Source: a virus
IMG/VR virus record: IMGVR_UViG_3300045988_039227
Coordinates: 32,001 to 96,000 of that record
Length of the DNA stretch: 64,000 nt
Strand: one strand, 5' to 3'
Both the position numbers and the translations under genes were made by a program. Shown one piece after another: positions 13,401-43,569 of the stretch (position 1 is its first letter; every line of letters begins with the position of its first letter). The notes below the pieces were generated by a model. That model saw nothing but the letters and a program-made list of their open reading frames with translations. It made no database searches and was not told where the DNA came from.

Positions 13401-16400
13401 ACTTTCTATACAAACACAGCATCTGCAGCTTTCTTTCTAGCAAAATATACCGGATCAACACCCCTTGGACCAGCGTCATTACCCTGGTCGAATGTCATAA
13501 AGATTGTTCTGCCTTTAGAATCTGTAAGCTTAAGCTATACTTCATTATTTCTCCACACAAGCTCAGCATTACCAGATTTTCCAGAAGCATCTGGGTAAAT
13601 CAAATGCGGATCAAGCGCTATAGAGAAGTAATGCGGGTCAAGTTTAGCCCTAAATGCAGGGAAATGTTTAGTAGTATCACTATACAGCTCTCTCCATTGA
13701 TCGTCAATCATATTGATACTCTACGCGCTGTTTGTATCAAGTATATCGTCAACATTTGGATCTACAGGGAATCTCTGGTTATATTCTCTAATGAAGTCTT
13801 CTGCATCATAAATAGTATCAGTAAGCGCATTATCAAGAGCTGTATTTGTTTTCTATACATTCTTTGTATTATCAGTCAAGAACTTAAGCTAATTATTTAT
13901 AACCGTACTCCAGAATCTTTGCAAACTCTTGTTGCCAACAAGGCTATTCATAAACTCGCCATCAAATGTAGCAAGGAATGACTTAATCTTGTTAAAATAA
14001 GTAAAGCTAGGATTACCAATATTAGATGAAAATTGAGTCTGCCACATTTGTAAGGCCTTATTTGCAGCGTCTCCGTACATCATCCTATTGTCTACTAGCT
14101 TATTAATAGCTGCTGCTATAAGCTTCTGCTCTGGAAGGGTATCGCCAACTTCAAACTAATCGCTACCGTAGAATTGGTCAAGAGCTGTCTAGGCATCATA
14201 TATTGAGTAAATAAGCTCATTAACTTGAGCTCGTTCGTCTGCTGTTGTAATATTAAGGTTTGTAATAGAACTTAACAGCGTATCAAGTTTCTTGCAGATT
14301 TCATGAATAGTATCAAGACCCGCCTAATATTGTTCATCTACAATAACGTGATCAAACGCATCTTCTGGGTAGAATCCAGGTACAGTATTCTCGTGCTATT
14401 TAGGCTACATGAGCTAATTTAAGCGCATCTGAGCGTCTTCTTTTAAGCTCTGGATAGATTCTATAGCTGAGTAAAGATCTCTCATCTGAAGTAATAATTC
14501 GTCCTTATTTGAGCCTTCTTTAAATATATCGTAAGATGGTACAGTTTTATGTTCGCCACCAGCTTCAGCAATACTATCGTATATACTTTGCAAATCAGAC
14601 ATAAGATCGTTTACTTTATTCTGCAAAGGTCTGACAACTTCGTTAGAAATATCTTCATTAGATTTATTGTAATATGGTGTTACAGGCTTGTTGAAATCAA
14701 GCATTTCTACTTTAAATACAGGTTCTGCTACAATTCCACTCGCTGTTCTATCATAGTAGAATGGCATTACGTATGTGCCTTCAATATTAGAACCAAATGT
14801 ATCGTAAAGTACCTAATTTAATCTTTGAAGCTATCTCTATTCCTACTGGATCATTGTTTCTTTAGCTCGACTATTGGACTTCTAATTACCAAGCATTCTG
14901 GTTTTTATGTCTGGTTTAAATGAAGATCTAACATCTATAACAAGAAGCTATCCATCATTATCAACAAGTACAATATCAGCCTATGATTGTATAGCTCTGC
15001 CTTTGTCATCATAGCCATAAATAGGAATGTCTGTATCAAGTACTCTATACTGACCGCCGTTGAGCATTCTGTCTCTAACAGACTTAACATACTGCTTAGC
15101 ATCTTCTAGTCCATTCGGATTATCTAACAGCGTGTCGGCAAAACTATCGTCATTTCCTAACATTATAGCCTATGCTAGTTCCCTAATAGTTTCTCCATCC
15201 CTTATAGACTGAGAATTAAAATAAGCTGTATCTATTGATGCTAAATAATGAGCAAATCCCTATAATAATTCCCCTTTATTTGGCTGAGAAAATATTGTGT
15301 CAATTATATCAGAATAATCTTGATCTCCGAATCTATCTGTATTATCTGCAAGATATCCAAGTATCTACTATTTGTCAGAGATGTTTATATTTTCCTCAAT
15401 TTCTGGATAATGAGACTGATATTCAAGTCTGTCTATCTCGTCTATATTTTCAAATACATGTAGATTATTATTATCGTCGTACGCTATTGTTGTATGGAAA
15501 CAATGTACAATAGCTCTGTTCTATTGACGCTTTAAAGCCTTTCTGTATCCATCGAATGATGTATCTTGAGAGGCATGTGTGGCAACTTGTGCTCCATAAG
15601 ATTGTACATCCATAGGAGTATTCATATTCTCCTTTTCTTTACGTGTTGATGTAAGGTAATGGCGAATATACATTGCTTTTGCTAAAGCTAATACTGAAGG
15701 TCCGCCGTCCTAACCAGTCTCTTCTTGAAGAATAGTTTTTATATCATTGTAGAGCTATTCAAACTTATAGAAACCAACCTTAGCGTTCTCCATAAGACCA
15801 TCGAATGACTACATTGCAAGTTCATCAAATCCAAGTAAAAATGATACTCTTGCTTTATTGCGCCTAGCTTTGCGCTTCTTTCTATAATGCTCTCTAGCCT
15901 TATCTCTACGACGTTTATATTCTTCTGCGTGTTTCTAAAGCTCCTCTGTAGTAGCTATATGCTTTTGCTAAGTTTCTGTTGGGTCTACAGCTTGCTTAGC
16001 TTGAGTATTAATGTCTTTTATATCTTCCTATGCAGCTTTAAGTATATCATTCTAGTAATCCTCTGTAAGCTTTGTTACAGCGTCTCCAGAATATATATCG
16101 GATAACATCCAGTCTATATTTTCATTCTGTTTGTTTGCATCGATAATCTTTGTGATACGCTCGTTAAGCTTACTCTTTGACCCGTCTTTAGCCGCAGCTC
16201 TAGTATGTTCTTCTGGCTTATATTTATCACCGAGCTTCTGCTTTAACTCAGCCTGCTTTCTCTGATACCTAAGCTCATCTGGATTATACTCAAGATTACC
16301 ATTATCATCACGTGTAACGCCTTCTGTGTGAATTGATAATGTAGAGTTAAGTAAGGATTCGTTAGCTGTATACATAGCTCTAGCTTGTTCGAGCTCCTGG

Positions 16401-19400
16401 ATCTCGTTATCATTAAATCCAACAGACTCGCTAAAATTGTTCAAGAATTGTAATGTCTATTCGTCTGTAGACTTCTCGTCGAAATTCTTATAAGCTTTAG
16501 CTAAACTTTGCTTTGCGCGAGCAATTTGTTTATCTATATTAGCAGACAACAACTTAGCGTCAGGTCTAACGGTCTTTAATCCAAGCTTATCGTGAGCAAA
16601 CTTAAATATGTCATCAATAGAATTCATCTTTGCTTTAAGTGTAAGCAATGCTTTCATTCTATTGTGAGCTTCAGAATTTCTCTGGAAGTTATTTATATGT
16701 CTATCGTGCTCTTCTTTCTATGAGCGCTCAACAAACTTTTCGCCATATTCGTTTGCTTCATCTTTGATAGATTCTTTGTATTCTACTACAGATTTTTCTA
16801 CTTCCTCTTGAGGCAAAGCTGCTGTATCAAGAGACTTCTTGTACTCATCCACCTTTCTGTTAACATAAGACTCGATTGCCTTAGTCTTTGCTGTAGCTGC
16901 ATTTATAGCAGTTAGCATAGGATCTCTTGACTATTCCTATCTATTTACAGCCTGTTCTACCTGATTTTGATAACCTTGCTGTCCGTAAATCTACTGAAGT
17001 CTAGCCTCGGCTTCCTACTAAGCTTTTCTGTTAGCAGTTAACTATTGCTCGATGTTAGCCCTATCAGCTATAGCTACATTGTATTGTTCTGTACCTTTAC
17101 TGATACCTTTAAGACGATATTGCTGTTCAGTCTACTTATTGTTTACGAGAGCAGAAATACGCTCCACATTAGACTGTAAATCATTCCAATACTGTTCACC
17201 AAAACGTGGTCTCTCTCGCTTCAAATCAGCCTCTCTGAGCTACTATATTTCTGTAGTCAGCTAATTATACCTTCCCTTAGAGATCTGGTCTGAAATAACA
17301 GCATTACTAGCTCTATTCATCTTTCCTTGTTCTCTATCAAGAAGCGCACTGTGCATTATAGCGTCTTTTACTTGTACGGTGTTCTTAATGTCATTAACGG
17401 CATGATAGATGTTCATGGCTACCATAGGATGCATACCACCCATAGCAAAACCACCTCGCCAGTTTGACAACATCTCCATATCGTTATAAAGTTCAGATTC
17501 GCCAAGACCAAACATACCTTTATAGAAGTCTGATACCTCTTTGCTATGAGCCATATCCTGGAATGCAAGACTGAGCAAATCAGCTGATCCGTATCCATAT
17601 GTCTTAGCAAACTCTTCAGCAGCATTAGCATTCAACTGCTGTACAATTTCTTCATTTCCTTCAGACGCTCTATCTATAATACCTTTTCTAACCGTATTGA
17701 TACCGTATTTGTTAAGCATTTTGAGAGCAGTAACTGTATTAGGATTCTTTACGGCTGCTTTCAGTAGTTTTCTCTTCAGCGTTTTAGCTCCAACCATAGT
17801 TGCTAATGCTTCAGCCTTCTTCGCTATAGCCTCACTAGCCATAACTCCTGCGTCTTTTAGAGCTTGCGGCATGACTTCTTTTGCAAGCCCCTTTACTCCC
17901 CTAGCAACTTCTCCTGCGGCAGCACCAACTCCAGCGCCAACATAATGTCCAAGAACACCACCACCAAGTACATCCATTGTTGTTGAGCCAATCTTTGCAC
18001 CAGTTTTGCCAGCTGCACTTGTAAGAGAGTTAACATACTGTCCAGCCTGTGCAAATTTACTTTCAACAGCTCCGTTTAATCCCGCGAGAGCATAGTCTGT
18101 ACCAATAACCAATCTTCCAGCTTTACTAGTGGCAAGCTTTGCCCCAAGTTTTGTTGTAGGAAGTTTATAGATGGCTTGTCTATAAAGACTTGATAGACTA
18201 TTGCCTGGCTATACATATGATATAACGTTTTGAACAACTTCTGTACCCATCGTTCTAGCGTTATCTACCATAAATTGCTATTCAAGACCTTTTGTTGTAC
18301 CGAGTTTAGCTTTAGATAAACGTGGATCATTACTCTTTGTAACGCCCATTAGGTAATCACTAAGAACTTTTTCCTTACCTTGCTGTGTATTAAGATTATA
18401 TCTATCCTCGGCATCTTTCTTAGACATACCATTCTACATTGCAAATTTTACAGACTGCTTTTGCAAATCTTTATACGATGCAGAAATACCTTGTGCTTTA
18501 CCGGAAGCTTCCTACGCTTCGTATTTATTAAGATTCTATTGATAGTTCTAGGTCCAACGTTGAGCAATTTCAGCGTAGTTCTCATCTTCTGCACCTTGCA
18601 GATTAAATGGAAGTGCAGCTGCATTAGCAGCGTTGTACAAAGCAAAACCAGCTTCTGGATGTCCGGCTGCTCCCAAAGCAAAAGAACCGACAGTACCAGC
18701 AGTTGTTATAAGATTACCAATATTACCTGTGTCTGAAGACCAAGAAGAACCCATCTGTTGAGGCAAATTCCACAACCAATAATCAGGTGTTAATAGATCA
18801 TCATTAGCATGTATATTTGCAAGATTCTCAGCATGTTTACTAACGTTCCAGAACTTCTTCCACTTAGACGCTCTACGCATCTAATCGTCAAGAGTTTCTT
18901 TGTAATCCTTAAGATCTTGCTAACGCTTAGCTTTAAATTGATTTGCTTCTATTTCTTTTTGATCCAAACTCATTCCTTGATGAGCCTTTTCAAATCTATT
19001 GGATAGCTACTTATTATAGTTATCAAGCCAATCCCTAGCCATCTACTCTTTGGATCTACCTGTGCCGTCAAACATATCATTTGTGACAGCAAATGCCTTA
19101 GTCATAGCAGCCTGAAATCCTTCCCACATAGATGTATGATCTTTCATCCATGTAGCCTTGTATGCATCGGCGAGTTCATTTAAATCTTTGTCTTGCAGCT
19201 AATCGTATGTTGACAAGATTTCTTTACCAAGTAAATACGTATCTTTCCACGCATCTCCTTTAACCTAAGCTTTAGGATTAGCTTTAAGGTAATTCCATTG
19301 GTCTTCCTTTGATTTAAGATCTCTTTTAAGTCGCTCCCTTTTGGACCATGCATCAGCTTTTGCCTAGTCTGTCTAAGCTAAAGCGATTTTACCCTTTGTG

Positions 19401-19948
19401 CTTTCAATTCCAAGATCGCTAGACTGATTTGAAAACAAACCAATTCTCTAGCCAATCTTCCATAACGTGAATTGAAAACTATCTTTTCCAAGTTCGTTTA
19501 TACCGCCAATATCAGAGCCAACAGAATTTTTGTAGATATCAGTCTTTTTAAAGTCTTCAAACAGCTTATCTTCCTCAAGCTATGTTTGCTTCTCTTTCTC
19601 TGCGTCAGAAAGTATACCTTCCGAGTCATCTTGGGCATCAATCTTTTGTCTGTTTGATCTTTCTTGTTGCTTGTATAAGCTGTCAATATGTTTATTCCAG
19701 TCATATTCAGCTATAGCATTTTTCTATCTCTGAATAGATTTTTGACTAGGCTTATACCAATCCCCGTGCGGCATTATATCAGACTCTAATCTAGAACCAG
19801 ATTGTCTTGATATGTAACTTGGTACATTAGCCTAAGTCCTTTTATTAGGAACGGATTGGCGTTGATTTGGTAGCGTTATACCAAATCTTTTAGCCTATCC
19901 TCTAAAATAGTCCTCTGCTGGGGACTTAAGTAAATTGTAATTTGCCAT
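4463..19948 (-). CDS. Giant 5,161-codon virion protein. It contains a crAss-type virion RNA polymerase motif (DFDID), an HExxH motif and Gly/Ala-rich hydrophobic segments.
   Basis: ATG at 19948-19946, with an in-frame TAA two codons upstream; TAA stop at 4465-4463. Nineteen ORF-track fragments from 18548..18880 down to 5240..5554 share one frame and each ends in TAG. I read all gaps between them codon by codon and found no TAA/TGA. There are ~124 in-frame TAG. Confidence 0.8.
7502..7516 (-). other. DFDID (DxDxD) putative catalytic metal-binding loop of the virion RNA polymerase
   Basis: In-frame GAT TTT GAT ATA GAC, context TGSDFDIDHLYLARY. As I recall it, this matches the aspartate loop reported for crAss-like phage vRNAP (phi14:2 gp66). 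Not verified by search. Confidence 0.6.
12098..12112 (-). other. HEGFH (HExxH) motif inside the giant gene
   Basis: In-frame CAT GAA GGA TTC CAT, context YTIGFHEGFHRALELLVEP. Confidence 0.45.
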
Positions 19949-19955
19949 AATTTAA

Positions 19956-21410
19956 TTAATTTGCTTTGTTAGGTGCTTTTCCTATATATCCAGGTTTGAC
20001 TTCAACCCAGATTGTTTGTCCAACTGCTCCAGCTGATTGATTATTATTTACAGATACAACGTTAGCCTTGATATAATACCTACCAAGTTTCTTGTTATAT
20101 GTAGGACCAGATGTTACTGTTGCAGTAATCTTCCTTCCAGGTGTTCTATAGAGTCCAAAGTTAACTCTCTTTGATCTACCTTCATTTAACTATCTAAACG
20201 CTCCAGACTTGGCTATATATTGTCCGTCATTAACGGTAATAATCTATTGTTTAGTAGATTGTGTCTATTTATTATCGCTATCACCCTGCGATCGAGACTA
20301 TGTATATTCATTCCATTGAGCATCTGGGTCTGCAAGTGTTACACCGTTAGCTCTAAGGTCATCTATTGATGTTGATACTGGAGTATAAGGCTACTCTCTA
20401 GCTGTATCAAATATAGTCTTATAATTACTTCCGGAGGAACTGTGATCCGGAATACCATTTGCAGCTCTTTTTACATCATCTGCGTATTTGTAATCCAAAA
20501 TAGCCTTTTGATTAGCGAGGTCTCTAGCAGATTTCTTTGCATCAAGCTAATCAGCAAGTATATTCTAATAGTTGAGTAAAGAATATTTATTAGGATCCCA
20601 TGCTATATTCTTCTTTCCTTCCCAAAGTTGCGCAACAGTACTCTACAATTGCTGTTTAACCTAATCGTCTGTAGGATTAGTTACACCAGCCTACTGTAAC
20701 TGCTATTTGGCTTTATCGTAATAATATTCGCCTGCTGCTGTAGACATAACAGACGGGATTGCCTTGCCGGCTGTATCCATGATCATCTAATCTGTAATAC
20801 CAGTGTAATCATTCTTTGGATCATACTTATATCCCATAGCCTCAACTTGTTTCTATGTAAGATTACTAGGTTTGAGTATACTATAAGGAATCTTTGTAAG
20901 ATCTTCTAGTGTGTCCATCTTCGTTGGAGCTAATGTATTCCAACTTTGTGTATATGGGTCAAACTTATCATAATCTAACCCATACTTCTACATTTGCCAA
21001 CCAAGCTAATCCTATGTAAGTTTTCCTTCAGCAACCATAGAAGCAGCTGCTTTCTAAAATGTCTTCATATTGTCAGCGTCAGCTTTCCATTTAGAGATCT
21101 TATCATAAGGTGTCTCTCTAATGATCTTGGCTATATAAGCTCTACCTTCTGCAGATCTAAGTGGGTCTATACCGTTCTAATACAAGTAATTAAGACCAGC
21201 GTTAACCCTGCCCTTTGTCTAATCATAGTAAGCTTTATTTAAACTAGCGCTTGGGCTATATAGGTCTCCGAATTCCTTAGCAAACTCCTTCTATTCTTGT
21301 ACAGCCTAATTATATTGTTCTCTTGCAGCACTAATGTACTACGACATCATACTGCTATCCAGTAGGTCTATAATAGGGACCGCTACTGGTTCATCATACA
21401 TTCCTATCAT
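19956..21410 (-). CDS. Hypothetical virion/ejected protein, 484 aa
   Basis: ATG at 21410-21408 overlaps the TAA of the upstream gene (TAATG); TAA stop at 19958-19956. All codons read: ~22 in-frame TAG (about 4.5%) and no TAA/TGA. The standard-code track shows no ORF of 60 aa or more here. Confidence 0.7.
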
Positions 21411-23011
21411 TATCTCAATCTTAAGCTAGTTATATTGTATGGGTTGTAATCAAATATACCTCCAGCCCATGTTGGTAAGAATAATCCATTAGGACCAAAT
21501 CCGCCAGTATAATCGCTAGAGAAATTAATTCTCTCATACGGCGTACCAAATGCGCCTCTCTAGTATTGCTCTTTAGATTTAGCCCAATTTCTTGTATACT
21601 TTGCAGAATCGGCAACTTTATCTGGATCTATGTACCAATACTTTCCATATGGTGCCTTTAAATTATTTAAAGAATAATCATCATATTTTAAATCAAGCAC
21701 ACCTCTATTTATTCCTGTGTCCTAATTTGGTACATTAGGTGATCCAGAAAACAACTAATACTTACCAGGAGTCCAACCTGGAGCTATGTTTTTATAATTA
21801 ATAGAGGTTGATCCAGGTGTATTGTCTGCTTTGTTTGTAGATCCGCCCTTTATACCATCTGCACCTATACCGTATATTGCTTTTAAAGCAGCATTCTTAT
21901 TATCTATATCCTATTGATACATATCAAGAATATCGCCATACTGCTTGTTTTTAATACGCTGAGACAGCCATTTCTGACCAATAAGACCAAGGTTAGACAA
22001 GTGTGTTTCAATACCCTTAGTCTTAGCGCCGTGTGCTCTATTATAAGCCTCCCATCCATATTGGTTAGACTGCTGTAATCTCTATGCGTCACTATCACCA
22101 AGTCTAGCAGCCATTTCGGCATAAGCGTTTCTATATGCAGCGTTCTTCTCCTGCACATTCATTAGCGCATCTGCAACGTTTCTCTAATTACCCAAAGCTA
22201 AGGCTACTCTATTAGCCTATCTTTGACCACCTGTATAACCACCAGAATTAGCGAGCTAATAAGCAGCCTATCTATCTTGAGCGTACAGCTTTTCAAGAAT
22301 AGGATTAGCTGATACTCTATTACCAGCCATAGTCTGTAAAGCTATTGGCGCGTATTTATTAGCTGCATATATATTTGGCATTACAGGATTTTCTCTACGC
22401 CAATGATTAAGCATCTGTGTTTCAAGCAGCGCTGGGAATGCATATCCTGCATCAAGCATAAGATTTGACACCTTTCCTTTACCTGATTTAGACCAACTCG
22501 AAATAGCCTATTTTGTTTTATCCCATAAGCTTTTGCCATTATCAAATCTATCTTTGCCACAATTATGCTTAATCTGAGCTGCATAATCCTCGATCTAATG
22601 CTACTTCTCTTGTCTATCTGTAATATTCTTCATAGCCTACAAAATAGGGGCTTTAGCGCGATCCAGCTGATTCTTCTAAAGTTCCATCGTCTATTTTGAT
22701 AAAGAGCTAAGTTCGGATTTCTTTCCAGCTCTTTTCTCAATGTTGTTATACATCTAAAGCTTTGCTGTTAATGGGGCTATTTGATCAGAAAATTTCATAC
22801 CGTTGCTCCAGTCTACATCATTACCAGCTATAACATTATTATCGTTTACACTAACAGAGCTAGGCTAATTATCAACTCCAACCTTTCCTTTGGTTACAAG
22901 AGTTCCTGTGCCATTAGTATAATCTATAATGGACTCCCCTTTGCCAACTAAACTATTTACAGGACCACTCTAATATCCATTAGGTGTCCATACTTTATTT
23001 CCTTTTAACAT
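21410..23011 (-). CDS. Hypothetical virion/ejected protein, 533 aa
   Basis: ATG at 23011-23009, with an in-frame TAA four codons upstream; TAA stop at 21412-21410. Contains track fragment 22268..22471. ~18 in-frame TAG, no TAA/TGA. Confidence 0.7.
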
Positions 23012-23705
23012 ATCTTGGTTTTATTAAATCTTTTCCTCGGTTGGCGTATAATACATCATCATACGTGTTACCATTATCTAAATAATATTGCTATGTAAGA
23101 CCTTCTGTTGCAGCTGATGATTGATTAACCTAGTTAACAAGATTAACTTTCTATTGCGCATTAAATATTTTTCTACGCTGTCTTTCTCTAGCTTTCTTAC
23201 TTCCAAACAGACCTCCGAATAATCCTGTGATGGCTCCAACCGCTCCACCTATAACAGTTCCAAGTCCAGGGAAACAGGAACCTATAGCAGCTCCTGCAGC
23301 AGCTCCAGATCCAACCATGCCTAACGTTGCGTTTCTGTTTGACTTGGATATATCTTCCATTGCTTTCTGTCTGTTAATATCATTCTACGCTTGGTAGTTT
23401 ACACCAAATGCCTAGTCTGTTCTTTGTCCAGAGTAAGCCATAAGTTCATTTGATCCCTTTACTGCGTCCTACATGGAATTATATCCCTGTATCATTCCTA
23501 TTGTGCCATTAACAGCTCCTGTTACTGCACCAGCGCTTATTCCGCCTCCTCCGAAATTTGTACTGCTAGGAATTTTCATTCCATTTATTTCTTTAATTGT
23601 TGGTAAAGATGTCAGCTATTGCTTATACGTATTAATTCCAGATATATCACCACCAATACTCTTTACACTACTTGATAAGTCTATACCATTATTGTATTTT
23701 GGCAT
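22995..23705 (-). CDS. Small membrane-type virion protein with a glycine-zipper hydrophobic segment, 236 aa
   Basis: ATG at 23705-23703, TAA stop at 22997-22995, overlapping the next gene's start by 17 nt. 7 in-frame TAG. The segment LGMVGSGAAAGAAIGSCFPGLGTVIGGAVGAITGLFGGLFG lies at about 23198..23324. Confidence 0.65.
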
Positions 23706-23728
23706 ATTATTTATCTTCTTTCTCTATT

Positions 23729-26700
23729 TTAGCTCCATGACTATCTATATTTTGTTATTATATATTGTATTGCCATAGCTGGATTTGGTTTTATATCTTC
23801 TATACTGCAAATCATAACCTTGCCTCTAGCTCTATTGCCAAATAATCCATCAGCCCTAGGTATGGCAAATCTATGATTATTTTCTCTAAGTGTTATCTGC
23901 GCTTCTAGGTTGGATTCTATCTTCTAAGATTCTGTCTACCATACGTATTTATGATTCTTTGAAAAATAATCATCCTAATCAGATATCATTGCCTATAACT
24001 ATAGGTTTTCATATGTAACAATTTCTTGATTATCAAACACCTTTGTAACAAGCGGCTATTGAGCAACAACGTATTTAACGTAGCTTGAAAGCAGCTGCTG
24101 AGTTGTTGATTTAGGTGATCCATCAAGGTAGTCATACTAATATATGCATACGGTATCGTTTTTCTTTACAAGATATTCTCCGTTAAAGAACTGTATAGCT
24201 CCATCAAATGGTATTGTTAATGTTGATGTAAACTTGCCAAGCATTTCGTTGTACACAATCTACATATCATTACTTAAGACATTAAATACAACTTCATTAT
24301 ATCTATTATTGTAGAACACCTTAAAGTTGTAGTCCTTTTTATACTTGTTCAGTATATTCTATACTTTACCTTGCTTTGAAAGCTATGTTACACTCTATCC
24401 ATCAAACAAACAAATTACATTATTATGACTATCAAACCAATACAAACCACCGGTAGTGCATGCTGCACAGAATTGCTGTTTATGCATTCCATAGGTATTG
24501 CTGTAGTAGTCGTATCTATCAAGTACTCCTCCTGTTCCGAGCACTATGTTTTGCCCAGAGTTGTCTGTAGCAACACTACGGTCATTAACACTTAATATGC
24601 CAAACGATTGTTCTTGACAAAATGTAAGAACATTCTTAAATGTGCATATATCAGTTATAGGACCATACTCCTGATCAACATCTATAAAGTTAGAGCTTCT
24701 AAATTTACACCAACTATCTATGATTTCATCATTTTGTTTCAAATCAGAATAATATACTCTTGTATCTATAGTTTTATTATAATCTTGTGGATTAAGATCA
24801 TCGTATACAGCAAGTGGAATACTTGTATTCTATACACTATAGACAGAATTATAAACATACTCTGGCTCCTTTTGTACGTAAGCCTCGGTTATCTCGCATG
24901 GTTCAGCCTATATAAAAGATGCATAGTTATCTCTTGCATTAGAACTGAATGTCCATCCATATTGGAACTTGCACCATATATTTGATTCTGTTGGTATAGA
25001 GTATGTTATCATATGTGTGTTAGGGAACTATAACTCATCTTTTCCGCCCTTTGTATAAGCTCCGTACACTTTGTGCATGGATGTATATTCGAATGTCTCT
25101 ACATGACAATCTCCGTCGAATACGGTATTCCAATCGTTTTTAGACTCGAAGTAGTTACCGTCTCCGTAATATATATTTGTAAGTCTATTTGTAAACGAAT
25201 ACCCGCCATAAGGAGTTATTTGCTATCTAAGATTAGTTAAATAAGTTCCAAGTAGAGTCGGCCTAATTATCTTGAGTATTTCACCAATTTCACCAGGTTC
25301 TGTCTAATATGCTTCCTGTTTAAAACTATCGTAATAATTGCCATTCTCTGGATAATAATAAGAAGTTGCACCAGCTGTACCATTTTCTTTGTACTAGCAG
25401 CTCAACAGTAAACATTTTCCGCCAGTTCCAAAACATGCGTTTTTATTACCATGCTTACCAGTTCCATCGCCTTTAAATCCACCATTATAATTACCAAATG
25501 ATTCAAATATATTGCCATTAGTGTCATTACAAATGCCACCGGTAACCATATTTGCAAACAGCGCTCCTCCAGCAGAAACTGCATAGTTAGGATAAGATTT
25601 TGATGATGCCTATTCGTCATTATCTTTATTAAAGTTTCTTTTGAATGCCTAATCCCATTTTATCTGGTCAACTAACTAAAAGTCTTGTATATACTATGTT
25701 CTCTAAAACGCATTATTCCACCAATCACCTGGATCAAAAACACCAGTACTAAATTCGTATGGCTAAGTGCTCTATTCATACAATTTTATATACGCAAAAG
25801 CTTTCTGTATTATAAATTTACCAGCTTTTTCCTACCTTTTGTCTGCCGACTCATTATCCTTATTGTATAGTCTATCAAAATTTAAAATACAATCTTTAAC
25901 CAAAGAGTATGAATAAGGTCTCACATTTCCCAATCCGCCAATTGTTCCGGAATCTAAAATATTATCTATAATTTCGTTGCCAGTATTACCACCTCGTGCT
26001 TTATGTGATTGTGGATTCACTTTATAGAAGTAGCTAGGATTATATGGTGTATCTAAATAGCATATTGTACTGTCTTTGCTAAAATGGCTATCTACAGTTA
26101 AATCATTAACATAAAATATTCCTCTTGAATCATCACTATCTTTTGGACCAGGAAATAGCTCTACGGCACAGTTTGATATACATGGTATTATAAATTTGAA
26201 GCTTGTCCTACCATTAAAGCCTCTTAAGCTTCCATAATCTGTATTTGTTTCACCATCCCTATGTGAATCATATTGGTTGTCTTTAAACTTATAATCTCCT
26301 CTAGCTCCAAACAAAAAAGACTGTTTTTGCAAATAATATTTTTTGTCTTTTGTAAATTGTTTAAATGATTCTGGCTGATAACAAATTTCTTTTGAGACAA
26401 ATTGCAATAATTTATCATTATCTATATTTGTCATACACTGTGATGAAAGATCGTCTCCGTCTCCAATAAGCTATTTGAGTGAATTATATCCTTCTATAAA
26501 CTTGTTGGTTGTTAAAAATCCGGTTGGGCAAAACATATGATATTTCGTTACCTGATACTCGCCATTTGCTTCATATTGCTTACTATACGTGTTAGACACA
26601 GGAGAGCTAAGTACACCTTGTGATATTGTAGCAATATCAGATTCGTGTCTAGCGCATCTAACTATCTGATAGCCAGTACATCCTTCTGGCAAACTTTTTA

Positions 26701-28441: not shown

Positions 28442-29249
28442 AGCAATAATCGTTAAAGTTTAACTATTTCTTTCCGGTGTTATTGAAGAAGTTCTCATCA
28501 TCATCCCATTCTGGTATAAGCTTAGTCCACTCATTCTTAATAGTGAGCATCTCACTTTCGTTTGGCATCATTGCCTCAGCGTAAGCCTGGTTTCTATAGA
28601 AATTCCACTGCTGCTATATATAGAAGTATGTGTTCTAATTGTATCTAGCTTTTCCTCCAAGTGATCCTCTAAGGAATTTTGGGAAGCTTAACTTCATCAT
28701 TACGTACCAGTATATAGCTTCCTAATATGAAGCTAAGTCTGGAATAAGTGGGTAACCCCTTTCATCTGTAGCTATTGCCTTGTATGACAATTTAACAAAG
28801 CCTTTGTCTTTATTAAAGACTATCCAACCTGGTTTAATCCAGTATGTAGGAACATCTATTTTCTTGTCTCTAATAGCATCCATCAGCGCAGTGCTACCAT
28901 TGATGCCAAGAAGCTATGATCTATGCGTAATCAACGGTACGCCAGCAGGCTACTCTGGATGATGGTGATGCATAGGTTTTGTATCAGCCTTAGACTTAAA
29001 TGAGCTCTCATCTTTTAGTGCCTATACCCAATTTGTTCCATTGTTTGAATAGGCTACAGTTGTCAATGATTCTAAGTCTTCTGGTATTGGAACTTGATGT
29101 TCGTGTATTTCAAATATTGGAACGCAATCTTCACCAGACTCCTTCTATACATACTATACAGGGGCACCAATTTTTTCAACAGCTTCAAAGATCCATTCTC
29201 GTATATCTGTAATACGCATGTTCTTTTCTTGCATGTTTGAGTCAGCCAT
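28431..29249 (-). CDS. Hypothetical structural protein, 272 aa
   Basis: ATG at 29249-29247, TAA stop at 28433-28431. 9 in-frame TAG and no TAA/TGA (all codons read). The last TAG (28464-28466) lies 11 codons before the TAA, and the tail overlaps the next gene by 11 nt. Confidence 0.65.
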
Positions 29250-29268
29250 AATTTTAGCTATAACTGAC

Positions 29269-29739
29269 TCACATTTTGTATACTTGTATATCATCTATAT
29301 TTATATAATCTTGTTTATTAAATATAAGTTGAGCAAGGTGCCTTTTGTTTTCCCTAACCATACATAGCTAGTATTTATATCTATCAGAAAACATCCTGGG
29401 TATTTTTGACCAATATAATCTATATTTATATCCATTAGAGTGCTCGTTTAAATGATAAACCCTTTTGCCTACTTCTTTAGTTGATTTGTAATCTGTAGAC
29501 AATGACTAACTAGAGTAGCTCTTTGGTTTATATTTTACTATGCATACAGTGCCTAGCCCATAAGGCATTTTAAAGGGCTGTGAGCGCTCTAAAATTTCTT
29601 CCTTGACAACTTTATTAAATTCGTCTATAATGCGCTTATATCGCGCGTAATTAAGCTCTACATCGTTCTTTTTAATGTAGTCTCTATATATATCAGCTAT
29701 TGTGTAGCTTTTCTTATTCTTCCTTATCTTGAGGACCAT
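29269..29739 (-). CDS. Small basic protein, 156 aa; possibly HU/IHF-like DNA-binding (weak)
   Basis: ATG at 29739-29737, TGA stop at 29271-29269, 2 in-frame TAG (29506, 29368). The pattern ILERSQPFKMPYGLGTVCIVKYKPK loosely resembles HU-fold proteins annotated in crAss structural modules (recollection). Confidence 0.5.
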
Positions 29740-30406
29740 TTGGTTTAACGCTTGCTAATGTTGAATTATTGCTATCGTCACTAGGTCTTTTTAACATAAA
29801 TGCCAATTCGTTGGTCATGATAGCTCTTTTTATGTCAGGTATCATCCACCCAGGTATTATTACATCATCTTCACTATCAGCCGTTTGCGTTGGATCAAAT
29901 ATTCCTGTAACGTATATATATTTAAAATTTTCCACACCATCACCATCAACATATATATACTAGTCGTCAAACCAACATATTGGCTCGTTGTATGTATATC
30001 TCCTAAAGTTATGATAATGTTTTCTAGACTTATTCATGATCTAGATAACACAACCGCTAATATCTGCAACATTAACTATGTCGTCGCTACTATCTTCCAT
30101 TGTGTACAATTTCTTTTTTGTTCTCTTCCTTGTACTACAATGACAGCAACAAGAGTCCTCTGATCCAGGAGTTGGATCGTCTATAAGCTCAAGTGGTCCA
30201 ATGGTTGATAGCTAACTATCATCTGGATCTTCATCATCTCCAGTTTCAGAATCTTTATCATTCTACTTCTTGGACAAATAGGCCTTATACTACATTATCC
30301 AAGATAAGATCTAATCCCTAGACATATCCTCGCTCTCGCTTATGTTATTATTTCGTACAATAAGAAGTATGTCATCTATCAATGTACGAGCTGAGAATGT
30401 TTTCAT
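29714..30406 (-). CDS. Hypothetical structural protein, 230 aa, with an acidic linker and a CCCHC cluster
   Basis: ATG at 30406-30404 overlaps the TGA of the upstream gene (ATGA); TAA stop at 29716-29714. 6 in-frame TAG, no TAA/TGA. Confidence 0.65.
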
Positions 30407-31068
30407 ATTGCTTCTATTATTCTTATACTATCTTCTTTAAGTATATCATTTGTATTATGTATCTTATATTTATACACATCTTTCTTTTTCCAGTCAAATG
30501 TTATTAATCTCTTAAAGAAGTTCTTTTTGTTCTTATATTCTCTATGCTTATAAATGTAGAGGTACTAAGTATTCTATACATCTAGCTTAATATTAACACT
30601 ATCTTTACCGATTGTATAGTATACTTTAGTTAGGTTGTTATACTGTAAACTATCTCTGTAAACAGAGTCTTTAAGTATAGTTATAATATTACCCCCTACC
30701 CCCTTACTTTTATTAACGTTTATAATCTACTTCTAAGTTGCTGCTACCTAAATTTCTTTACTCTTTAGCTTCTCTACTTTGCGTACAGAGTCCAACTACT
30801 ATACAAGCTTATCATTATAATCTTTAAGCTTTTTCATGTCTAGCCTTAAAACACCAGAAGCCTACTAGGCACCATTTAAGGCATCCTAATAGGCTTCGAT
30901 GTTATTATTAGCCATTTTAAGCTCCTCTGAGAGCCTATTAGCTTTGTTGTGGTAGAATATACCAGACGCTAAACAAAAGGCTATTAGAAGCCCAGCAATG
31001 GCGTTAAGCAGCGTTTTGTAGTTGTTCTTTATCTTGTTTAATATCTACTACATCAGCATTGCTTTCAT
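30403..31068 (-). CDS. Spanin-like protein, 221 aa (N-terminal TM helix followed by coiled coil)
   Basis: First in-frame ATG at 31068-31066; alternatives at 31059 and 31053. TGA stop at 30405-30403. Has the TM-like segment LLNAIAGLLIAFCLASGIFY followed by heptad-like charged sequence. 12 in-frame TAG, including three TAG-TAG pairs. It sits last in the lysis cassette. Confidence 0.5.
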
Positions 31069-31309
31069 TATTGTTCAAATATTCTTTTAAATATGTTTTT
31101 ATCTCACCAAACTTACCTTGTATATAAATAGATACTCCATAGATACTAGCTGAATAAACTAATGTTTGGGCTACAAACCCTAGTACACCTGTGGAGATTT
31201 CACCCTACTATAAATACTGTACCCAGGTGAGAACCTAACCGCTCAAGAACGCGAGACATGCGGTTGAATACTAAATTTTCTCGCGCCATGTTCCTGTTAC
31301 TTTGCTCAT
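31004..31309 (-). CDS. Holin-like small membrane protein, 101 aa (two hydrophobic helices)
   Basis: ATG at 31309-31307 overlaps the TGA of the endolysin-like gene (ATGA); TAA stop at 31006-31004. 4 in-frame TAG, including the TAG-TAG pair at 31205..31210. Hydrophobic segments: YSTACLAFLSG-TAG-VLTWVQYL and ISTGVLGFVAQTLVYSASIYGVSIYI. Confidence 0.5.
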
Positions 31310-31731
31310 TTTATCTCAATAGTTACCTTTCCTTTAGCACAAGCATCCTTTATAATTGGATAGAACTTGTTTATGGTAGCTCTTGAGTTAAGGACCATTC
31401 CAACTTTCTTATTTTCCCCAAGCAGCAAACAACCGGCCGTATCTTCATGTGTTGAGCCAGCGTGTATACGAATACCTTCAAATGATGGTACATTCATCAG
31501 TTGAGGAGTATACTTCTTAAATCTAGGCGAATAGGTCCACTTAATCTCATAAGTTCCGTAAGGTATTGCTGTTTTGGCATATACCTTTTTCTCTCCGTTA
31601 TCAAATTTACCGTTCTTATTAAGATCTCTAACTGTATCTTCAAGTGTGTCGCAAAAATAATTACCATCAATATATAATCGTCCGATGGTATACGTAGAGC
31701 GTAAGGCTATTCTTTTAAGTGTTAATTTCAT
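31306..31731 (-). CDS. Putative endolysin / cell-wall hydrolase, 141 aa (His...Cys motif)
   Basis: Intact track ORF with no TAG; TGA stop. The motif GIRIHAGSTHEDTAGCLLLG is reminiscent of YkuD/L,D-peptidase-like catalytic His-Cys pairs (recollection). It sits immediately upstream of the holin-like and spanin-like genes. Confidence 0.45.
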   Translation of the reverse strand: MKLTLKRIALRSTYTIGRLYIDGNYFCDTLEDTVRDLNKNGKFDNGEKKVYAKTAIPYGTYEIKWTYSPRFKKYTPQLMNVPSFEGIRIHAGSTHEDTAGCLLLGENKKVGMVLNSRATINKFYPIIKDACAKGKVTIEIK

Positions 31732-33719
31732 TAATAATTAAGCGTATAGGGGCATACGAGTACACCGTTGTCAATATGTATTAAACGCACATGTATATTA
31801 TATTGCAGGTTAAAGCTATCTATAGACGTAAGCTTAGGGCCACCCTAAGTTGTTTTCATCACTTTAAATAAATTTTTGTAGTCTCCTGAAGATAATTTTC
31901 CTCCCATCAAACCACATGGATACATGTCTAAGACATTTCCTATAGAACTATAATCGTACCAATCGGAAATACTATAATTACCTGATGTATCTAATAAAAC
32001 AATCTACTGAGCACTTGTAAAGTTAATACTAAACCCATTAGCGCTACCTGGATATACAGAGCCCTTTTTAGACGAAAGACAGTCGGATGTAAGGGCAAAT
32101 GTACCAGATTTAGAAGGAAAATCAATATGATGACTAGCACTATCAGGCATACCAATATCTATTCCGTTATATCCGTATTTAGCACTGTGGTCGTCATTAT
32201 CTACCACAAGAAGGCTATCTATAGAATTATCATAACTCTAAGATAATCCATTTATATGTGCATAAGCAATACCGTTGTTATCAACACAAATTGGCCACTA
32301 AGTTCCAGTTGCCTTAGTAGTAACCTTAATGCCTCCTAAAGTAGTAGTTGAAGCTACAGGTAAAGTATATTTGTTAGCACCTTCTTCTATTCCATCAAGT
32401 TTACCCTTGTCCTTTTTGCTCATAAAGCCATCTGTACCGTTAGAGACATTCTCTATTGTTATCCATTCATCTTCACCGTTAGCCTTAATTACCCTTAGTG
32501 CCTGTGTAACTTTCGCTGAAGTTTGTGTCTAACCTACCTTCTGAATATAAATATTACTTACCGTCTCATCTTTCTATGAATAAGAAGATAAATCGCTAGA
32601 ATTAGCTTTGCTATCAATTAGTCCTTTTAATACTTTTCCTTGAGCTGCGCTTAAACTATCAGATGTAGAGTTACTTGTTAGATTATTCTGAATACCACGC
32701 CAGGTATTTGTATCCGTGTATTTATCTTGTGTCCATGCGCTCCAAGTTCCATTTAAACAAGTGCGTCTGTATGTATCTTTTGAATCAGTAGTTAAAATCT
32801 AGGTATAATAACTTCCTGATGCATTGTGCGTTACAATAAGTCCGATAGCATTTACTCCACTTGGTTTATTTAAAACATTATTAGAACCTCCGCAGTTATA
32901 AAATCCGGGAGCAATAATCTTATTTAAATCCGCATTTGCATCTAAGGTGATATTCACTGCTTTTGCTGCTAATTTAGAATTAATCTCAGACTCTGTATAA
33001 TACCGATCATCGTGTGTATGTGAAGATGGTGTAAACGAACTAGGCTTTCCAGTAACTTCTCCCCATGAAGGCCATCTCGTAGCTGTAGATGGCGCACCTG
33101 TAACCTAAGACCAAGTATGAGTATGACTAGAGTTAGCCTTACCATCAACTAATCCTTTCAGTACCTTGCCCTAGTTTGCGCTAAGTGAATCTGATGTACT
33201 AGTTGATGTTAAGTTATCTTGTATACCTCTCCATGTATTGGTGTCTGTAAATTTAGCTCCTGATGGTACATCAGTATTAACTGTGTGCCCATTAACTTTG
33301 GATGCATTAGATGCTGTAGAAGCGTTGCCCTCAAGTGCTCCTTTAAACTTAGCAGCTGCAACAATTCCAGGAAAAGATGTATTTCCATTAGCGTCTAGCA
33401 AAGTAGCAGTACGCTTAATAGTTGCGAACACGCCTATATACTATCTTACATATATTGGTTCGGTTGCATTTTCAGCAGTAGCTATCTCCATAAAGCCAGC
33501 GCTTTCCGCAGTCGCTCCTCCTCCTATTCTCCAAAAATCGTTCCCGCCACAAGTGCCCTTTATCTGTCGAAATGTTGTTCCGCTATCGCTGAACAACAAA
33601 TCGCCTGTTAAGGTTCCACCAGATAAAGGTAGGTAATTATGTGAATGATTTTTTAATGCAAATTTAGTTTTGCATATGGACCATAATAAGCCTACGCCTG
33701 TTTTATCGAGAAAATTCAT
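31731..33719 (-). CDS. Tail fibre protein, 662 aa, with an internal 41-aa repeat
   Basis: ATG at 33719-33717 overlaps the TAA of the upstream fibre gene (TAATG). The TAA stop at 31733-31731 overlaps the endolysin ATG (TAATG). Fragments 33441..33719, 33171..33431 and 32004..32207 are in one frame. 10 TAG, no TAA/TGA. The N-terminus MNFLDKTGVGLLW and the motif NKYTLPVASTTTLGGIKV are typical of fibres. Confidence 0.75.
32595..32717 (-). repeat. Intragenic repeat copy 2 (TDTNTWRGIQNNLTSNSTSDSLSAA-CAA-GKVLKGLIDSKANSS)
   Basis: Second copy of the 41-codon unit. CAA (Gln) at 32640..32642 occupies the column held by TAG (33171..33173) in copy 1. Confidence 0.7.
33126..33248 (-). repeat. Intragenic repeat copy 1 (TDTNTWRGIQDNLTSTSTSDSLSAN-TAG-GKVLKGLVDGKANSS)
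   Basis: A 41-codon unit that aligns residue for residue with 32595..32717. It is diverged at the DNA level. Confidence 0.7.
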
Positions 33720-42122: not shown

Positions 42123-43505
42123 TTATTTATTCTTAAATTTAACATAAACAGTAGAACCGCCTGTAGAAACGTTTCTCTTCATTGGATTAGGGCAGCAATA
42201 ATAATATCTAGAATCATTAAGCTTATGCTGAGGCTTAGTGAGAGGGATGTATGTTGCTGCGCCAACATTACCAACGCCCTGTGTATTAATGTTAGCAGCG
42301 TACAAGATAGGTTGACGTGTAACAATCCACAAGTACTGTCCATCTGTATCGTTCTCTACAGTAGTAGCGTCTGTAAGACTATTTACCTTTGTAAGAAGTG
42401 CAAGGTTTACATTCTCTACACCAACTGCATTGAAAGATTCTTGATCCTTTGTCTCGAAAGACTGATCCTTACGGTTAAATCCATATTTGTAATCGTCTTC
42501 CATATTCTCTGGGAATGGACGTACTGGCAAGAAGCCAATGTAATCATAATCGCCACCAATTACAGTAACGTTAAAACCGGTGCTAACTTCGTTATTTTTA
42601 GCTGACACTGTTACGTATGTTGATACTGTATCATTCTAATCAAGAGCCTTAATAAGACCCGTGTGCTGATCAATTACTACAACACCAGTCTTAGCTGCAT
42701 GGAAGTCGAGCTGTTCGTAAGGCCAGTTGTCTGGAGTATACTCAAGTACCGAACCATTCTCTAGCTCTACTTCAATATAATACTGATGATCTCTTGTGTC
42801 GAGTTCTCCTAGTCTAAGAGATGTATTGCCATACATGTTAAGGTCGCCCTTAACTCTAATGGACAAAATATTCTTATTCATAAGATCGTCCTTATCTACA
42901 TCAAGTGTAATGTCGCCACTTGCACCAGACTTATCGTCTACAAGTTGAAGAACGTCACCGTAGTCCATTGTGTATGTATGGAGATCTGTGCGACCCCAAC
43001 CTGGTTCATAAATCATAGCCTGTACAACGAGTTTGTATACACCACAGAACATCTGATCCTTTGCAGGGAAGTAGCACTGAATAGAGTTAGCCTTAGGCAG
43101 AACTCTAGAGTATGCCAAATATGTAAAGTCCTCACAAGCGCAGCAATTTACAGCATCATATGCCTTTCTGTACTTTGGTGGCAATATGCCAGGTCCTGCT
43201 GCAGGATTGCAACCATGAGGGTCAAGCATGCATCGGAAGTTATGACTACAATAATAGTCATTGTGACAGCAGTCATGATGATCACAGTGTGGCAATACAT
43301 GATATTTTGGATGACCACACATATTCGTCATATATCCACAACCATGAACATGCTTATTGCAGAAGCAATCGACTGGAAAATAGTCGAGCATTGATGTGTT
43401 AATTAAATAACACTTAAGCTGTTTGATATTAGCTTGATCGTACGTACGTGGACCACGAAGTGTAAGATTTAATCTTATATCGTTTCCAATTCTAATTCTT
43501 TGCAT
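42123..43505 (-). CDS. Structural protein with a Cys/His-rich insert, 460 aa
   Basis: ATG at 43505-43503, TAA stop at 42125-42123. Track ORFs 42636..43565 and 42123..42608 are in the same frame and are joined by a single TAG at 42636..42638. The TTG-start extension in the track covers the upstream terminator, so I rejected it. Confidence 0.7.
43134..43367 (-). other. Cys/His-rich segment: 10 Cys and 10 His in 53 residues, plus a downstream CCxC
   Basis: DCFCNKHVHGCGYMTNMCGHPKYHVLPHCDHHDCCHNDYYCSHNFRCMLDPHGC at residues 46-99, then NCCACE at residues 120-125. Confidence 0.8.
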
Positions 43506-43521
43506 ATTATAATATGTGTTT

Positions 43522-43563
43522 AAAAACAAAAAGCCGAGATAGGGTAAGAACCCCCACCCCGGC
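43522..43563 (-). terminator. Intrinsic terminator specific to the minus-strand transcript
   Basis: The minus-strand RNA is GCCGGGGUGGGG-GUUCUUA-CCCUAUCUCGGC followed by UUUUUGUUUUU. This gives a 12-bp stem in which three pairs are G-U. Those three pairs would be A-C mismatches in a plus-strand transcript. It starts 7 nt after the TAA of 43570..44694. Confidence 0.7.
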
Positions 43564-43569
43564 AATTAA

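What the first reader, a model, noticed from the sequence alone, without database searches (positions are those of the whole stretch)
30403..31731. Lysis cassette: the endolysin has no TAG, while the holin and spanin are amber-loaded
The putative endolysin (31306..31731) has 0 TAG in 141 codons. The overlapping holin-like gene (31004..31309) has 4 TAG in 101 codons. One is at codon 13, and a TAG-TAG pair sits between the hydrophobic helices. The spanin-like gene (30403..31068) has 12 TAG in 221 codons, including three TAG-TAG pairs. If amber decoding depends on a phage-supplied suppressor, the membrane-permeabilising steps could not be made until the code switch. The harmless cytoplasmic enzyme would be unaffected. 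This fits the published idea that recoding guards against premature lysis, and it would place the block on the holin and spanin specifically.
Basis: inference. Interest (0 to 1): 0.7.

Follow-up and report, generated by a model that had tools for sequence, protein, structure and literature searches.

The report
Amber-recoded lysis genes in a crAss-like phage
The three genes are a plausible lysis module of a gut crAss-like phage that reads TAG as glutamine, but the "TAG-free enzyme versus TAG-loaded membrane genes" contrast mostly reflects how much glutamine each protein has. Only the spanin-like gene truly prefers TAG, and that bias is already published.

Summary
The counts are exact: 0, 4 and 12 in-frame TAGs, all on the minus strand. 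The window is a Burzaovirus-like crAss phage (about 90% nt identity to cr7_1) whose late block reads TAG as Gln; 35 of 37 genes carry TAG.

- **Enzyme (DUF5675, YkuD/Tlde1-like):** it has a single Gln codon, so 0 TAG is expected (P=0.60). Low Gln is a family trait in standard-code phages too. Its orthologue carries 1-5 TAGs in 13 of 20 recoded genomes, so 27/50 Gln sites are TAG.
- **Holin-like gene:** it uses TAG at the background rate (4/10 against 0.40; pooled 0.35).
- **Spanin-like gene:** it alone prefers TAG (12/13, P=1e-4, BH q=0.0065). Its TAG share exceeds the rest of the locus in 19/19 genomes, including lightly recoded ones.

Borges et al. already reported preferential TAG use in crAss-like spanins, and in their phages the lysin was also recoded. 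So the block is on the whole late operon, not on holin plus spanin specifically, and the enzyme is not spared by design. Gene identities are plausible but unproven: no known holin family matches, and no o-spanin partner was found. Verdict: an ordinary member of a known phenomenon, with a real but known spanin bias.

The parts
31306..31731 (-). 141-aa DUF5675 protein, the candidate endolysin (YkuD/Tlde1-like, 'C82-like' Cys peptidase fold). It has 0 TAG and only one Gln codon (CAA, codon 77).
   Evidence: Pfam PF18925 matches at E=1.2e-33. H90, G92, G100 and C101 are invariant across 20 diverse homologues. Pfam hits to Tlde1_dom (8/20 members) and YkuD (3/20) are weak. No hydrophobic segment was found. 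cr7_1 annotates the orthologue as 'putative transpeptidase'.
31004..31309 (-). 101-aa holin-like small membrane protein. It has two moderately hydrophobic segments (15-33, 45-63) and a hydrophilic tail. TAG occurs at codons 13, 25, 34 and 35. Its start overlaps the enzyme's stop (ATGA).
   Evidence: Counts are and hydropathy. AF2 gives a helical hairpin (H5-34, H42-80) at low confidence, pLDDT 60. Residues 8-70 are strongly conserved. Synonymous changes far outnumber nonsynonymous ones against relatives, e.g. 13:1 and 12:0. There is no Pfam, NCBIfam or lysis-PHROG match. The ORF is not annotated in cr7_1 RefSeq.
30403..31068 (-). 221-aa spanin-like protein with an N-terminal TM helix (20-38), a coiled-coil region and a conserved C-terminal domain. 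It has 12 TAG out of 13 Gln sites, including TAG-TAG at codons 7-8, 68-69 and 90-91.
   Evidence: PHROG 'Rz-like spanin' phrog_739 matches at E=7e-6 over residues 23-109. TIGR03495 LysB matches at E=0.0065, below its cut-off. Of 60 family members, 6 hit Rz-like PHROGs and 8 hit DUF6549. Statistics are and TAG conservation.
31004..31068 (-). 65-nt out-of-frame overlap between the 3' end of the holin-like gene and the 5' end of the spanin-like gene. Gene callers in public data mostly start the spanin-like gene at Met4 or Met6.
   Evidence: The junction sequence is. Homologues of 216-218 aa are listed.
31731..33719 (-). Upstream tail-fibre gene, 662 aa with 10 TAG. Its TAA stop overlaps the enzyme's ATG (TAATG).
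   Evidence: Pfam Phage_fiber_rpt matches at 5e-19. The junction is shown.
29714..30406 (-). Downstream crAss tail Ring protein 2, 230 aa with 6 TAG. Its start overlaps the spanin-like stop (ATGA).
   Evidence: Pfam PF25702 matches at 6e-60. The junction is shown.

Best explanation
This is the lysis module of a TAG-to-glutamine recoded crAss-like phage (Suoliviridae, Burzaovirus-like). It sits inside one long, translationally coupled late operon, between a tail-fibre gene and the tail ring proteins.

**Components**
- A cytoplasmic DUF5675 enzyme with a YkuD/Tlde1-like fold, presumed to cut peptidoglycan stem peptides.
- A small two-helix membrane protein, presumed to be the holin.
- A type-II membrane coiled-coil protein, presumed to disrupt the envelope in the way a spanin does.

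**How amber decoding bears on it**
- Amber decoding is supplied by a phage tRNA with a CUA anticodon. It lies outside this window; in cr7_1 it sits at the head of the same-strand block.
- Amber decoding gates essentially the whole late block, not the lysis membrane proteins in particular.
- Within that block, the TAG count per gene follows two things. The first is Gln content, which explains 0 TAG in the one-Gln enzyme and 4 in the Gln-rich holin-like gene. The second is codon-bias selection: strongly codon-biased capsid genes avoid TAG.
- The spanin-like gene is a genuine, lineage-wide outlier that prefers TAG to CAA/CAG.

**Shown:** the code, the counts, the statistics, the pattern in relatives, the family assignments and the operon junctions.

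**Inferred:** the enzymatic, holin and spanin activities, the timing of suppressor expression, and any selective reason for the spanin bias.
For: **Code**
- Reading TAG as sense triples the total length of long ORFs.
- TAG and CAA/CAG interchange at the same alignment columns among orthologues.
- cr7_1 has a tRNA with anticodon CTA at 9123-9194 on the minus strand (RefSeq names it tRNA-Gln).
- The cr7_1 replication block has 11 TAG in 7,196 codons, against 21.8 per 1000 in the window's late block.
- TAG=Gln has been proteomically validated in other crAss-like phages (PMC9523058).

**Composition**
- The enzyme has 1 Gln codon.
- 61 standard-code DUF5675 homologues have a median Gln content of 2%.
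- Enzyme orthologues carry 0-5 TAG; 27/50 Gln sites are TAG.
- The holin-like gene is 4/10 here and 54/155 pooled.
- The spanin-like gene is 12/13 (q=0.0065) and 186/257 pooled. Its share is higher than the rest of the locus in 19/19 genomes, including L014 (0.55 against 0.13) and L063 (0.42 against 0.09).

**Codon bias**
- TAG share correlates negatively with GC3 (Spearman rho -0.58, P=6e-4).
- The major capsid protein has 0 TAG, 0 CAA and 16 CAG.

**Operon**
- Junctions are TAATG and ATGA overlaps.
- Promoter-like sites are not above shuffled expectation, and there is no convincing internal minus-strand terminator.

**Lysis context**
- In many standard-code phages the DUF5675 gene sits next to N-terminal-TM proteins of about 125 and about 210 aa. 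In others it has the same enzyme, TM protein, Ring2 order as here.
Against: - No activity has been tested for any of the three proteins.
- The holin-like protein matches no known holin family, and its helices are only moderately hydrophobic.
- No outer-membrane lipoprotein partner (o-spanin) was found, and the Rz-like hits are weak.
- The AF2 model of the enzyme failed (pLDDT 39), and there is no PDB sequence match.
- The suppressor tRNA was seen only in a relative, not in this window.
- The relatives compared are phylogenetically non-independent, so 19/19 overstates the evidence.
Confidence: 0.75

Rival explanations
1. The phage deliberately keeps the endolysin free of TAG so that it can accumulate harmlessly. 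It loads the holin and spanin with TAG so that only the membrane-permeabilising steps wait for the code switch.
For: In this genome the enzyme has 0 TAG while the two membrane genes have 4 and 12, with TAGs early in both. Six other recoded genomes (L003, L004, L005, L015, L030 and L063) also have a TAG-free enzyme. The spanin-like gene prefers TAG.
Against: - The enzyme has one Gln codon, so P(0 TAG)=0.60.
- Low Gln is shared by standard-code homologues.
- 13 of 20 recoded genomes have 1-5 TAGs in the enzyme, and 54% of its Gln sites are TAG.
- The holin-like gene uses TAG at or below the background rate.
- 35 of 37 late genes carry TAG.
- The enzyme is translationally coupled to a gene with 10 TAGs.
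- In the crAss-like phages studied by Borges et al., the lysin is itself preferentially recoded.
Confidence: 0.05
2. This is a purely compositional or neutral reading. The TAG distribution among late genes reflects only Gln content, mutation pressure and selection for translational efficiency in abundant virion proteins. The spanin-like excess is then drift in a low-expression gene and has no role in lysis timing.
For: The enzyme and the holin-like gene fit the null. TAG share falls with codon-bias strength (rho -0.58). TAG-TAG doublets occur at the expected frequency window-wide. A 5,161-codon gene with 124 TAGs implies that suppression is nearly complete once it is on, so extra TAGs cost little.
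Against: - The spanin-like gene is an outlier above the GC3 trend (GC3 0.32, share 0.92).
- It has 0 CAA, although CAA is common elsewhere.
- Its excess persists in lightly recoded lineages, and one TAG-TAG pair is invariant in all 16 aligned sequences.
- An independent study found the same bias in crAss-like spanins, p=9e-6.
Confidence: 0.2

Closest known systems
Preferential stop-codon recoding of lysis genes in TAG-recoded crAss-like phages (Borges et al., bioRxiv 10.1101/2021.08.26.457843; published 2022)
   Same: The late structural and lysis block uses TAG as Gln, and the replication block uses the standard code. A phage suppressor tRNA is present in the relative. The spanin gene family significantly prefers TAG over CAA/CAG (their p=9e-6; here 12/13, q=0.0065).
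   Different: Their lysin was a lysozyme-type amidase that was itself preferentially recoded. Here the enzyme is a Gln-poor DUF5675 protein with too few Gln sites to show any bias. The preference they report for a 'tail tube' family two genes downstream of the spanin is not evident here (p170, 3/10; pooled 0.23). I could not verify that their spanin family is the same as this one.
Canonical holin-endolysin-spanin cassette of phages of Gram-negative hosts (lambda S, R, Rz/Rz1)
   Same: A soluble wall-degrading enzyme with no signal sequence sits next to a small membrane protein with two hydrophobic helices. A type-II membrane protein with a coiled coil follows. The genes are tightly overlapping.
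   Different: The gene order is enzyme, holin-like, spanin-like. No Rz1-like lipoprotein is embedded or adjacent. The spanin-like protein has an extra conserved C-terminal domain. There is no homology to S-type holins. The cassette is embedded among tail genes rather than forming a separate late unit.
YkuD / Tlde1 L,D-transpeptidase-fold peptidoglycan enzymes (MEROPS C82) and the 'C82-like' DUF5675 lysin candidate LysPd160 (bioRxiv 10.64898/2026.04.11.717860)
   Same: The His...Gly-Cys motif is invariant. There are weak profile hits to Tlde1_dom and YkuD. The preprint groups DUF5675 structurally with C82 peptidases.
   Different: Similarity is below the Pfam thresholds. There is no solved structure or PDB sequence match. 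I found no activity data for DUF5675 in the passages I read.
[quoted passage not shown]
   Same: It embodies the same idea, that switching the code licenses the lysis genes.
   Different: No such module lies next to this cassette. The only suppressor found is tens of kilobases upstream along the operon in the relative cr7_1. No aaRS or release-factor gene was noted there.

Membership tests
TAG-to-Gln (code 15) recoded crAss-like phage late block | Coding density is restored when TAG is read as sense. | tested here: met
   Long ORFs total 24,854 aa with TAG read as sense, against 7,744 aa under the standard code. A contiguous chain of 37 minus-strand genes results.
TAG-to-Gln (code 15) recoded crAss-like phage late block | TAG aligns with Gln codons in homologues. 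| tested here: met
   TAG and CAA/CAG swap at the same columns in the holin-like, spanin-like and DUF5675 alignments.
TAG-to-Gln (code 15) recoded crAss-like phage late block | The phage encodes a suppressor tRNA with a CUA anticodon. | tested here: inconclusive
   The 64-kb window has no tRNA. The closest relative, cr7_1, has one at 9123-9194 on the minus strand, about 5 kb beyond the region homologous to the window's end.
TAG-to-Gln (code 15) recoded crAss-like phage late block | Early and replication genes are kept in (near) standard code. | tested here: met
   In cr7_1 the plus-strand block has 11 TAG in 7,196 codons, and 32 of 38 genes are TAG-free. That region is not part of the window.
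Endolysin (peptidoglycan hydrolase, YkuD/C82-like) | Catalytic His/Cys motif of the L,D-transpeptidase fold. | tested here: met
   H90, G92, G100 and C101 are invariant in 20 homologues of 48-65% identity.
Endolysin (peptidoglycan hydrolase, YkuD/C82-like) | Significant sequence or structure similarity to characterised C82 / Tlde1 enzymes. | tested here: inconclusive
   The best Tlde1_dom hit has E=0.001 (8/20 members) and the best YkuD hit E=0.011 (3/20). The AF2 model is unusable, pLDDT 39. There is no PDB hit.
Endolysin (peptidoglycan hydrolase, YkuD/C82-like) | Muralytic activity. | not testable with these tools
   This needs a zymogram or a peptidoglycan digestion assay.
Holin | A small protein with at least one TM helix and a hydrophilic C-terminal tail, encoded next to the endolysin. 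| tested here: met
   The protein is 101 aa. Two segments each have a Wimley-White octanol free energy of about -5.3 kcal/mol, similar to my from-memory lambda S105 control. AF2 gives a helical hairpin at low confidence. The start overlaps the enzyme's stop.
Holin | Homology to a described holin family. | tested here: not met
   There are no Pfam or NCBIfam hits. The only PHROG hit is an unknown-function family at E=0.0056.
Holin | Lethal membrane hole formation that releases the endolysin. | not testable with these tools
   This needs expression in a host.
Two-component spanin (Rz/Rz1 type) | i-spanin: an N-terminal TM anchor followed by a periplasmic coiled coil. | tested here: met
   The TM helix is at 20-38 (KD 2.25). 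The Rz-like PHROG hit covers residues 23-109 at E=7e-6. Only 6 of 60 family members reach such hits.
Two-component spanin (Rz/Rz1 type) | A partner outer-membrane lipoprotein (o-spanin), embedded, overlapping or adjacent. | tested here: not met
   A lipobox scan of all frames with TAG read as sense found no candidate between 28 and 34 kb. My pattern is simple and could miss atypical Bacteroidota signals.
Lysis gene preferentially recoded (sense of Borges et al.) | TAG is used for Gln significantly more often than in the rest of the genome. | tested here: met
   This is met for the spanin-like gene only: 12/13, q=0.0065, and 186/257 against 738/1856 pooled. It is not met for the holin-like gene (0.35-0.40). 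It cannot be assessed for the enzyme in this genome, which has one Gln.

The most novel reading that the evidence does not exclude
In Burzaovirus-like Suoliviridae the spanin-like gene (DUF6549-related) may be the focal point of amber recoding. It keeps a TAG share of 0.42-0.55 in lineages where the other late genes are at about 0.1. One TAG-TAG doublet is invariant in all 16 aligned sequences. It may therefore be where recoding is most strongly selected, acting as a translational safety catch on the last, irreversible step of lysis.
Probability: 0.3. Interest if true: 0.45.

Novelty: new member of a known kind. Interest (0 to 1): 0.25.

Why it matters
- Raw TAG counts per gene in recoded phages must be normalised by glutamine content, and checked in relatives, before they are read as regulation.
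- The analysis independently reproduces, in a different crAss family with a different lysin type, the published observation that the spanin is the most TAG-preferring gene.
- It also gives a provisional annotation of a lysis module in Burzaovirus: a DUF5675 enzyme, an unannotated 101-aa membrane protein and a spanin-like protein. In the RefSeq record all three are either 'hypothetical' or missing.

Tried and rejected
- **AF2 model of the DUF5675 enzyme.** Only homologues of at least 90% identity were admissible, and the model reached pLDDT 39. I therefore ran no fold search.
- **PDB searches.** Neither the single sequence nor a 20-sequence profile gave a hit.
- **Embedded or adjacent o-spanin lipoprotein.** None was found near the cassette.
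- **Sigma-70 promoter and terminator scan of 28-36 kb.** The result was no better than shuffled sequence. Bacteroidota and phage-RNAP promoters are not covered by that scan.
- **TAG-TAG doublets as a separate signal.** Window-wide they match expectation (16 against 15.3). The cassette's four doublets follow from the spanin's high TAG share.
- **Homologue searches for names or domains.** The holin-like and spanin-like searches returned only unnamed close relatives. NCBIfam added nothing above its cut-offs.
Full report
**1. What is at the coordinates**

- 31306..31731 encodes 141 aa with no TAG.
- 31004..31309 encodes 101 aa with TAG at codons 13, 25, 34 and 35.
- 30403..31068 encodes 221 aa with 12 TAG, including TAG-TAG at codons 7-8, 68-69 and 90-91.

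The genes overlap one another. The upstream tail-fibre gene and the enzyme share TAATG, and the enzyme and the holin-like gene share ATGA. The holin-like and spanin-like genes overlap by 65 nt, and the spanin-like gene and Ring protein 2 share ATGA. No promoter or terminator signal above shuffled expectation lies inside the region.

**2. Context**

The window is a crAss-like phage.
- Positions 29200-31740 are about 90% identical to cr7_1 and cr124_1 (Suoliviridae, Oafivirinae, Burzaovirus).
- Reading TAG as sense raises the total of long ORFs from 7,744 to 24,854 aa. It yields 37 contiguous minus-strand genes.
- These include the crAss major capsid protein, tail ring proteins 1 and 2, and a tail fibre.
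- TAG interchanges with CAA/CAG at the same alignment columns in relatives.
- There is no tRNA in the window. cr7_1 carries a tRNA with anticodon CTA at 9123-9194 on the minus strand, just beyond the region matching the window's end.
- The cr7_1 replication block is almost TAG-free, with 11 TAG in 7,196 codons.
- TAG=Gln has been shown by metaproteomics in other crAss-like phages (PMC9523058).

**3. Is the contrast more than chance?**

The window has 462 TAG in 21,219 codons. TAG makes up 0.397 of all Gln sites (TAG+CAA+CAG). Thirty-five of 37 genes contain TAG.
- **Enzyme.** It contains one Gln codon in total. P(0 TAG) is 0.60 given its Gln sites. Per codon it is 0.044 before correcting for 37 genes.
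- **Holin-like gene.** It is Gln-rich (9.9%) and uses TAG at 4 of 10 sites, exactly the background rate (P=0.61).
- **Spanin-like gene.** It uses TAG at 12 of 13 sites (P=1.1e-4, BH q=0.0065), the strongest TAG preference in the window.
- **TAG-avoiding genes.** These include the capsid protein (0/16), 42123-43565 (1/17), 49399-50595 (5/36) and the portal (15/73).
- **Codon bias.** TAG share falls with GC3 (rho -0.58, P=6e-4).
- **Doublets.** TAG-TAG doublets are at expectation window-wide, 16 against 15.3.

**4. Relatives**

I fetched 80 loci encoding DUF5675 homologues. With the window, 20 genomes are TAG-recoded.
- **Enzyme.** It carries 0-5 TAGs and at least one in 13 of 20 genomes, including cr7_1. 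Pooled, 27 of 50 Gln sites are TAG (0.54).
- **Standard-code homologues.** Sixty-one of them have 0-5 Gln, median 2%. Low Gln is therefore a family property.
- **Holin-like gene.** Pooled, it is 54/155 (0.35), against 738/1856 (0.40) for the other genes in the same loci.
- **Spanin-like gene.** Pooled, it is 186/257 (0.72). Its share exceeds the rest of the locus in 19/19 genomes. That includes the lightly recoded L014 (0.55 against 0.13) and L063 (0.42 against 0.09). Several of its TAG positions, including one TAG-TAG pair, are invariant in the 16 aligned sequences.
- **Caveat.** These genomes are related, so the counts are descriptive rather than independent trials.

**5. What the genes are**

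*Enzyme.*
- It is DUF5675 (E=1.2e-33) with an invariant His...Gly-Cys motif.
- It has weak profile similarity to Tlde1 and YkuD L,D-transpeptidase-fold domains.
- A 2026 preprint groups DUF5675 with C82 peptidases as a lysin candidate.
- It has no hydrophobic segment.
- Structure prediction failed, and PDB searches found nothing.

*Holin-like protein.*
- It is under purifying selection: synonymous changes far outnumber nonsynonymous ones, and its core is highly conserved.
- It has two moderately hydrophobic segments, and AF2 predicts a low-confidence helical hairpin.
- It belongs to no described holin family.
- It is not annotated in the cr7_1 RefSeq record.

*Spanin-like protein.*
- It belongs to a family of about 200-220 aa proteins, with 174 representatives at 50% clustering.
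- The family has an N-terminal TM helix, a coiled coil and a conserved C-terminal domain.
- Only a minority of members reach Rz-like spanin PHROGs or DUF6549.
- No lipoprotein partner was found.

*Synteny.* In many other phages DUF5675 sits beside N-terminal-TM proteins of similar sizes, which supports a lysis role.

**6. Mechanism**

The best-supported reading is a late-operon lysis module whose translation requires amber decoding, like that of almost every late gene. One gene in the same block has 124 in-frame TAGs in 5,161 codons. Suppression must therefore be nearly complete once it is on, so extra TAGs cost little at that stage. I infer that before the switch any single TAG suffices to block a gene.

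The enzyme is not spared by design. Because it is translationally coupled to a gene with 10 TAGs, it is unlikely to be made independently. The spanin-like gene's TAG preference is real and conserved.

**7. Comparison with the literature**

Borges et al. (bioRxiv 10.1101/2021.08.26.457843) already reported the following for TAG-recoded crAss-like phages.
- Only four gene families prefer TAG over CAA/CAG.
- Two of these are lysis genes: a spanin (p=9e-6) and a lysozyme-type amidase.
- They proposed that recoding guards against premature lysis.

The present locus reproduces the spanin result. It contradicts the idea that the lysin is left unrecoded as a rule.

**8. Verdict**

Its interpretation is only partly supported: the enzyme contrast is a compositional effect, the holin-like gene is average, and the spanin bias is genuine but known. 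This is a new, unannotated member of a known kind and is of modest interest.

Noticed in passing
window 31731-33719 (boundary near 31740): Nucleotide similarity to cr7_1 and cr124_1 stops at about window 31740, at the enzyme's start codon. Upstream, this phage has a 662-aa tail-fibre-repeat protein. cr7_1 instead has a 2,497-aa 'spore coat protein-like' gene there. This looks like a modular swap of the receptor-binding gene at the lysis-cassette boundary.
   Followed up: partly
window 47848-49380 (-): The major capsid protein (Crass_capsid, E=1.5e-209) uses 16 CAG, 0 CAA and 0 TAG for Gln, and AAG for 96% of Lys. Across genes, TAG share falls with GC3 (rho -0.58). The most codon-biased, presumably abundant, virion proteins avoid TAG.
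   Followed up: partly
window 4463-19948 (-) and 3-4466 (-): A 5,161-aa ORF has 124 in-frame TAGs, and the adjacent ORF of more than 1,487 aa has 39. Their existence implies very efficient amber suppression late in infection.
   Followed up: no
L038 6450-7253 and L040 6451-7233: In two relatives a 260-267-aa ORF is inserted between the DUF5675 gene and the holin-like gene, and the enzyme's C-terminus is altered. The inserted protein has a Cys/His-rich C-terminal motif that resembles an HNH endonuclease, but it has no Pfam hit at 1e-3. It may be a homing endonuclease.
   Followed up: partly
L063 and L014 (whole loci): These two relatives are only lightly TAG-recoded: TAG share in other genes is 0.09 and 0.13. 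Even so, their spanin-like genes have 5/12 and 6/11 Gln sites as TAG. My first coding-density classifier called L063 non-TAG-recoded.
   Followed up: partly
L001 / NC_055895.1 75156-75392 and 73356-73826: The cr7_1 RefSeq record leaves the conserved holin-like ORF unannotated. It labels the 156-aa protein downstream of Ring protein 2 'topoisomerase', which Pfam does not support (no hit for the window orthologue).
   Followed up: no
L083 (cr7_1) 4850-5809 and 20629-20992: cr7_1 carries a reverse transcriptase next to a tail protein, which may form a diversity-generating retroelement. Its replication block also holds a tmRNA-like gene overlapping a tRNA-Cys call. Neither lies in the window.
   Followed up: no
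window 22995-23810 (-): A 271-aa ORF has a Gly/Ala-rich glycine-zipper-like N-terminal region. My lipobox scan picked it up. Its cr7_1 counterpart is annotated 'peptidoglycan-associated protein'.
   Followed up: no
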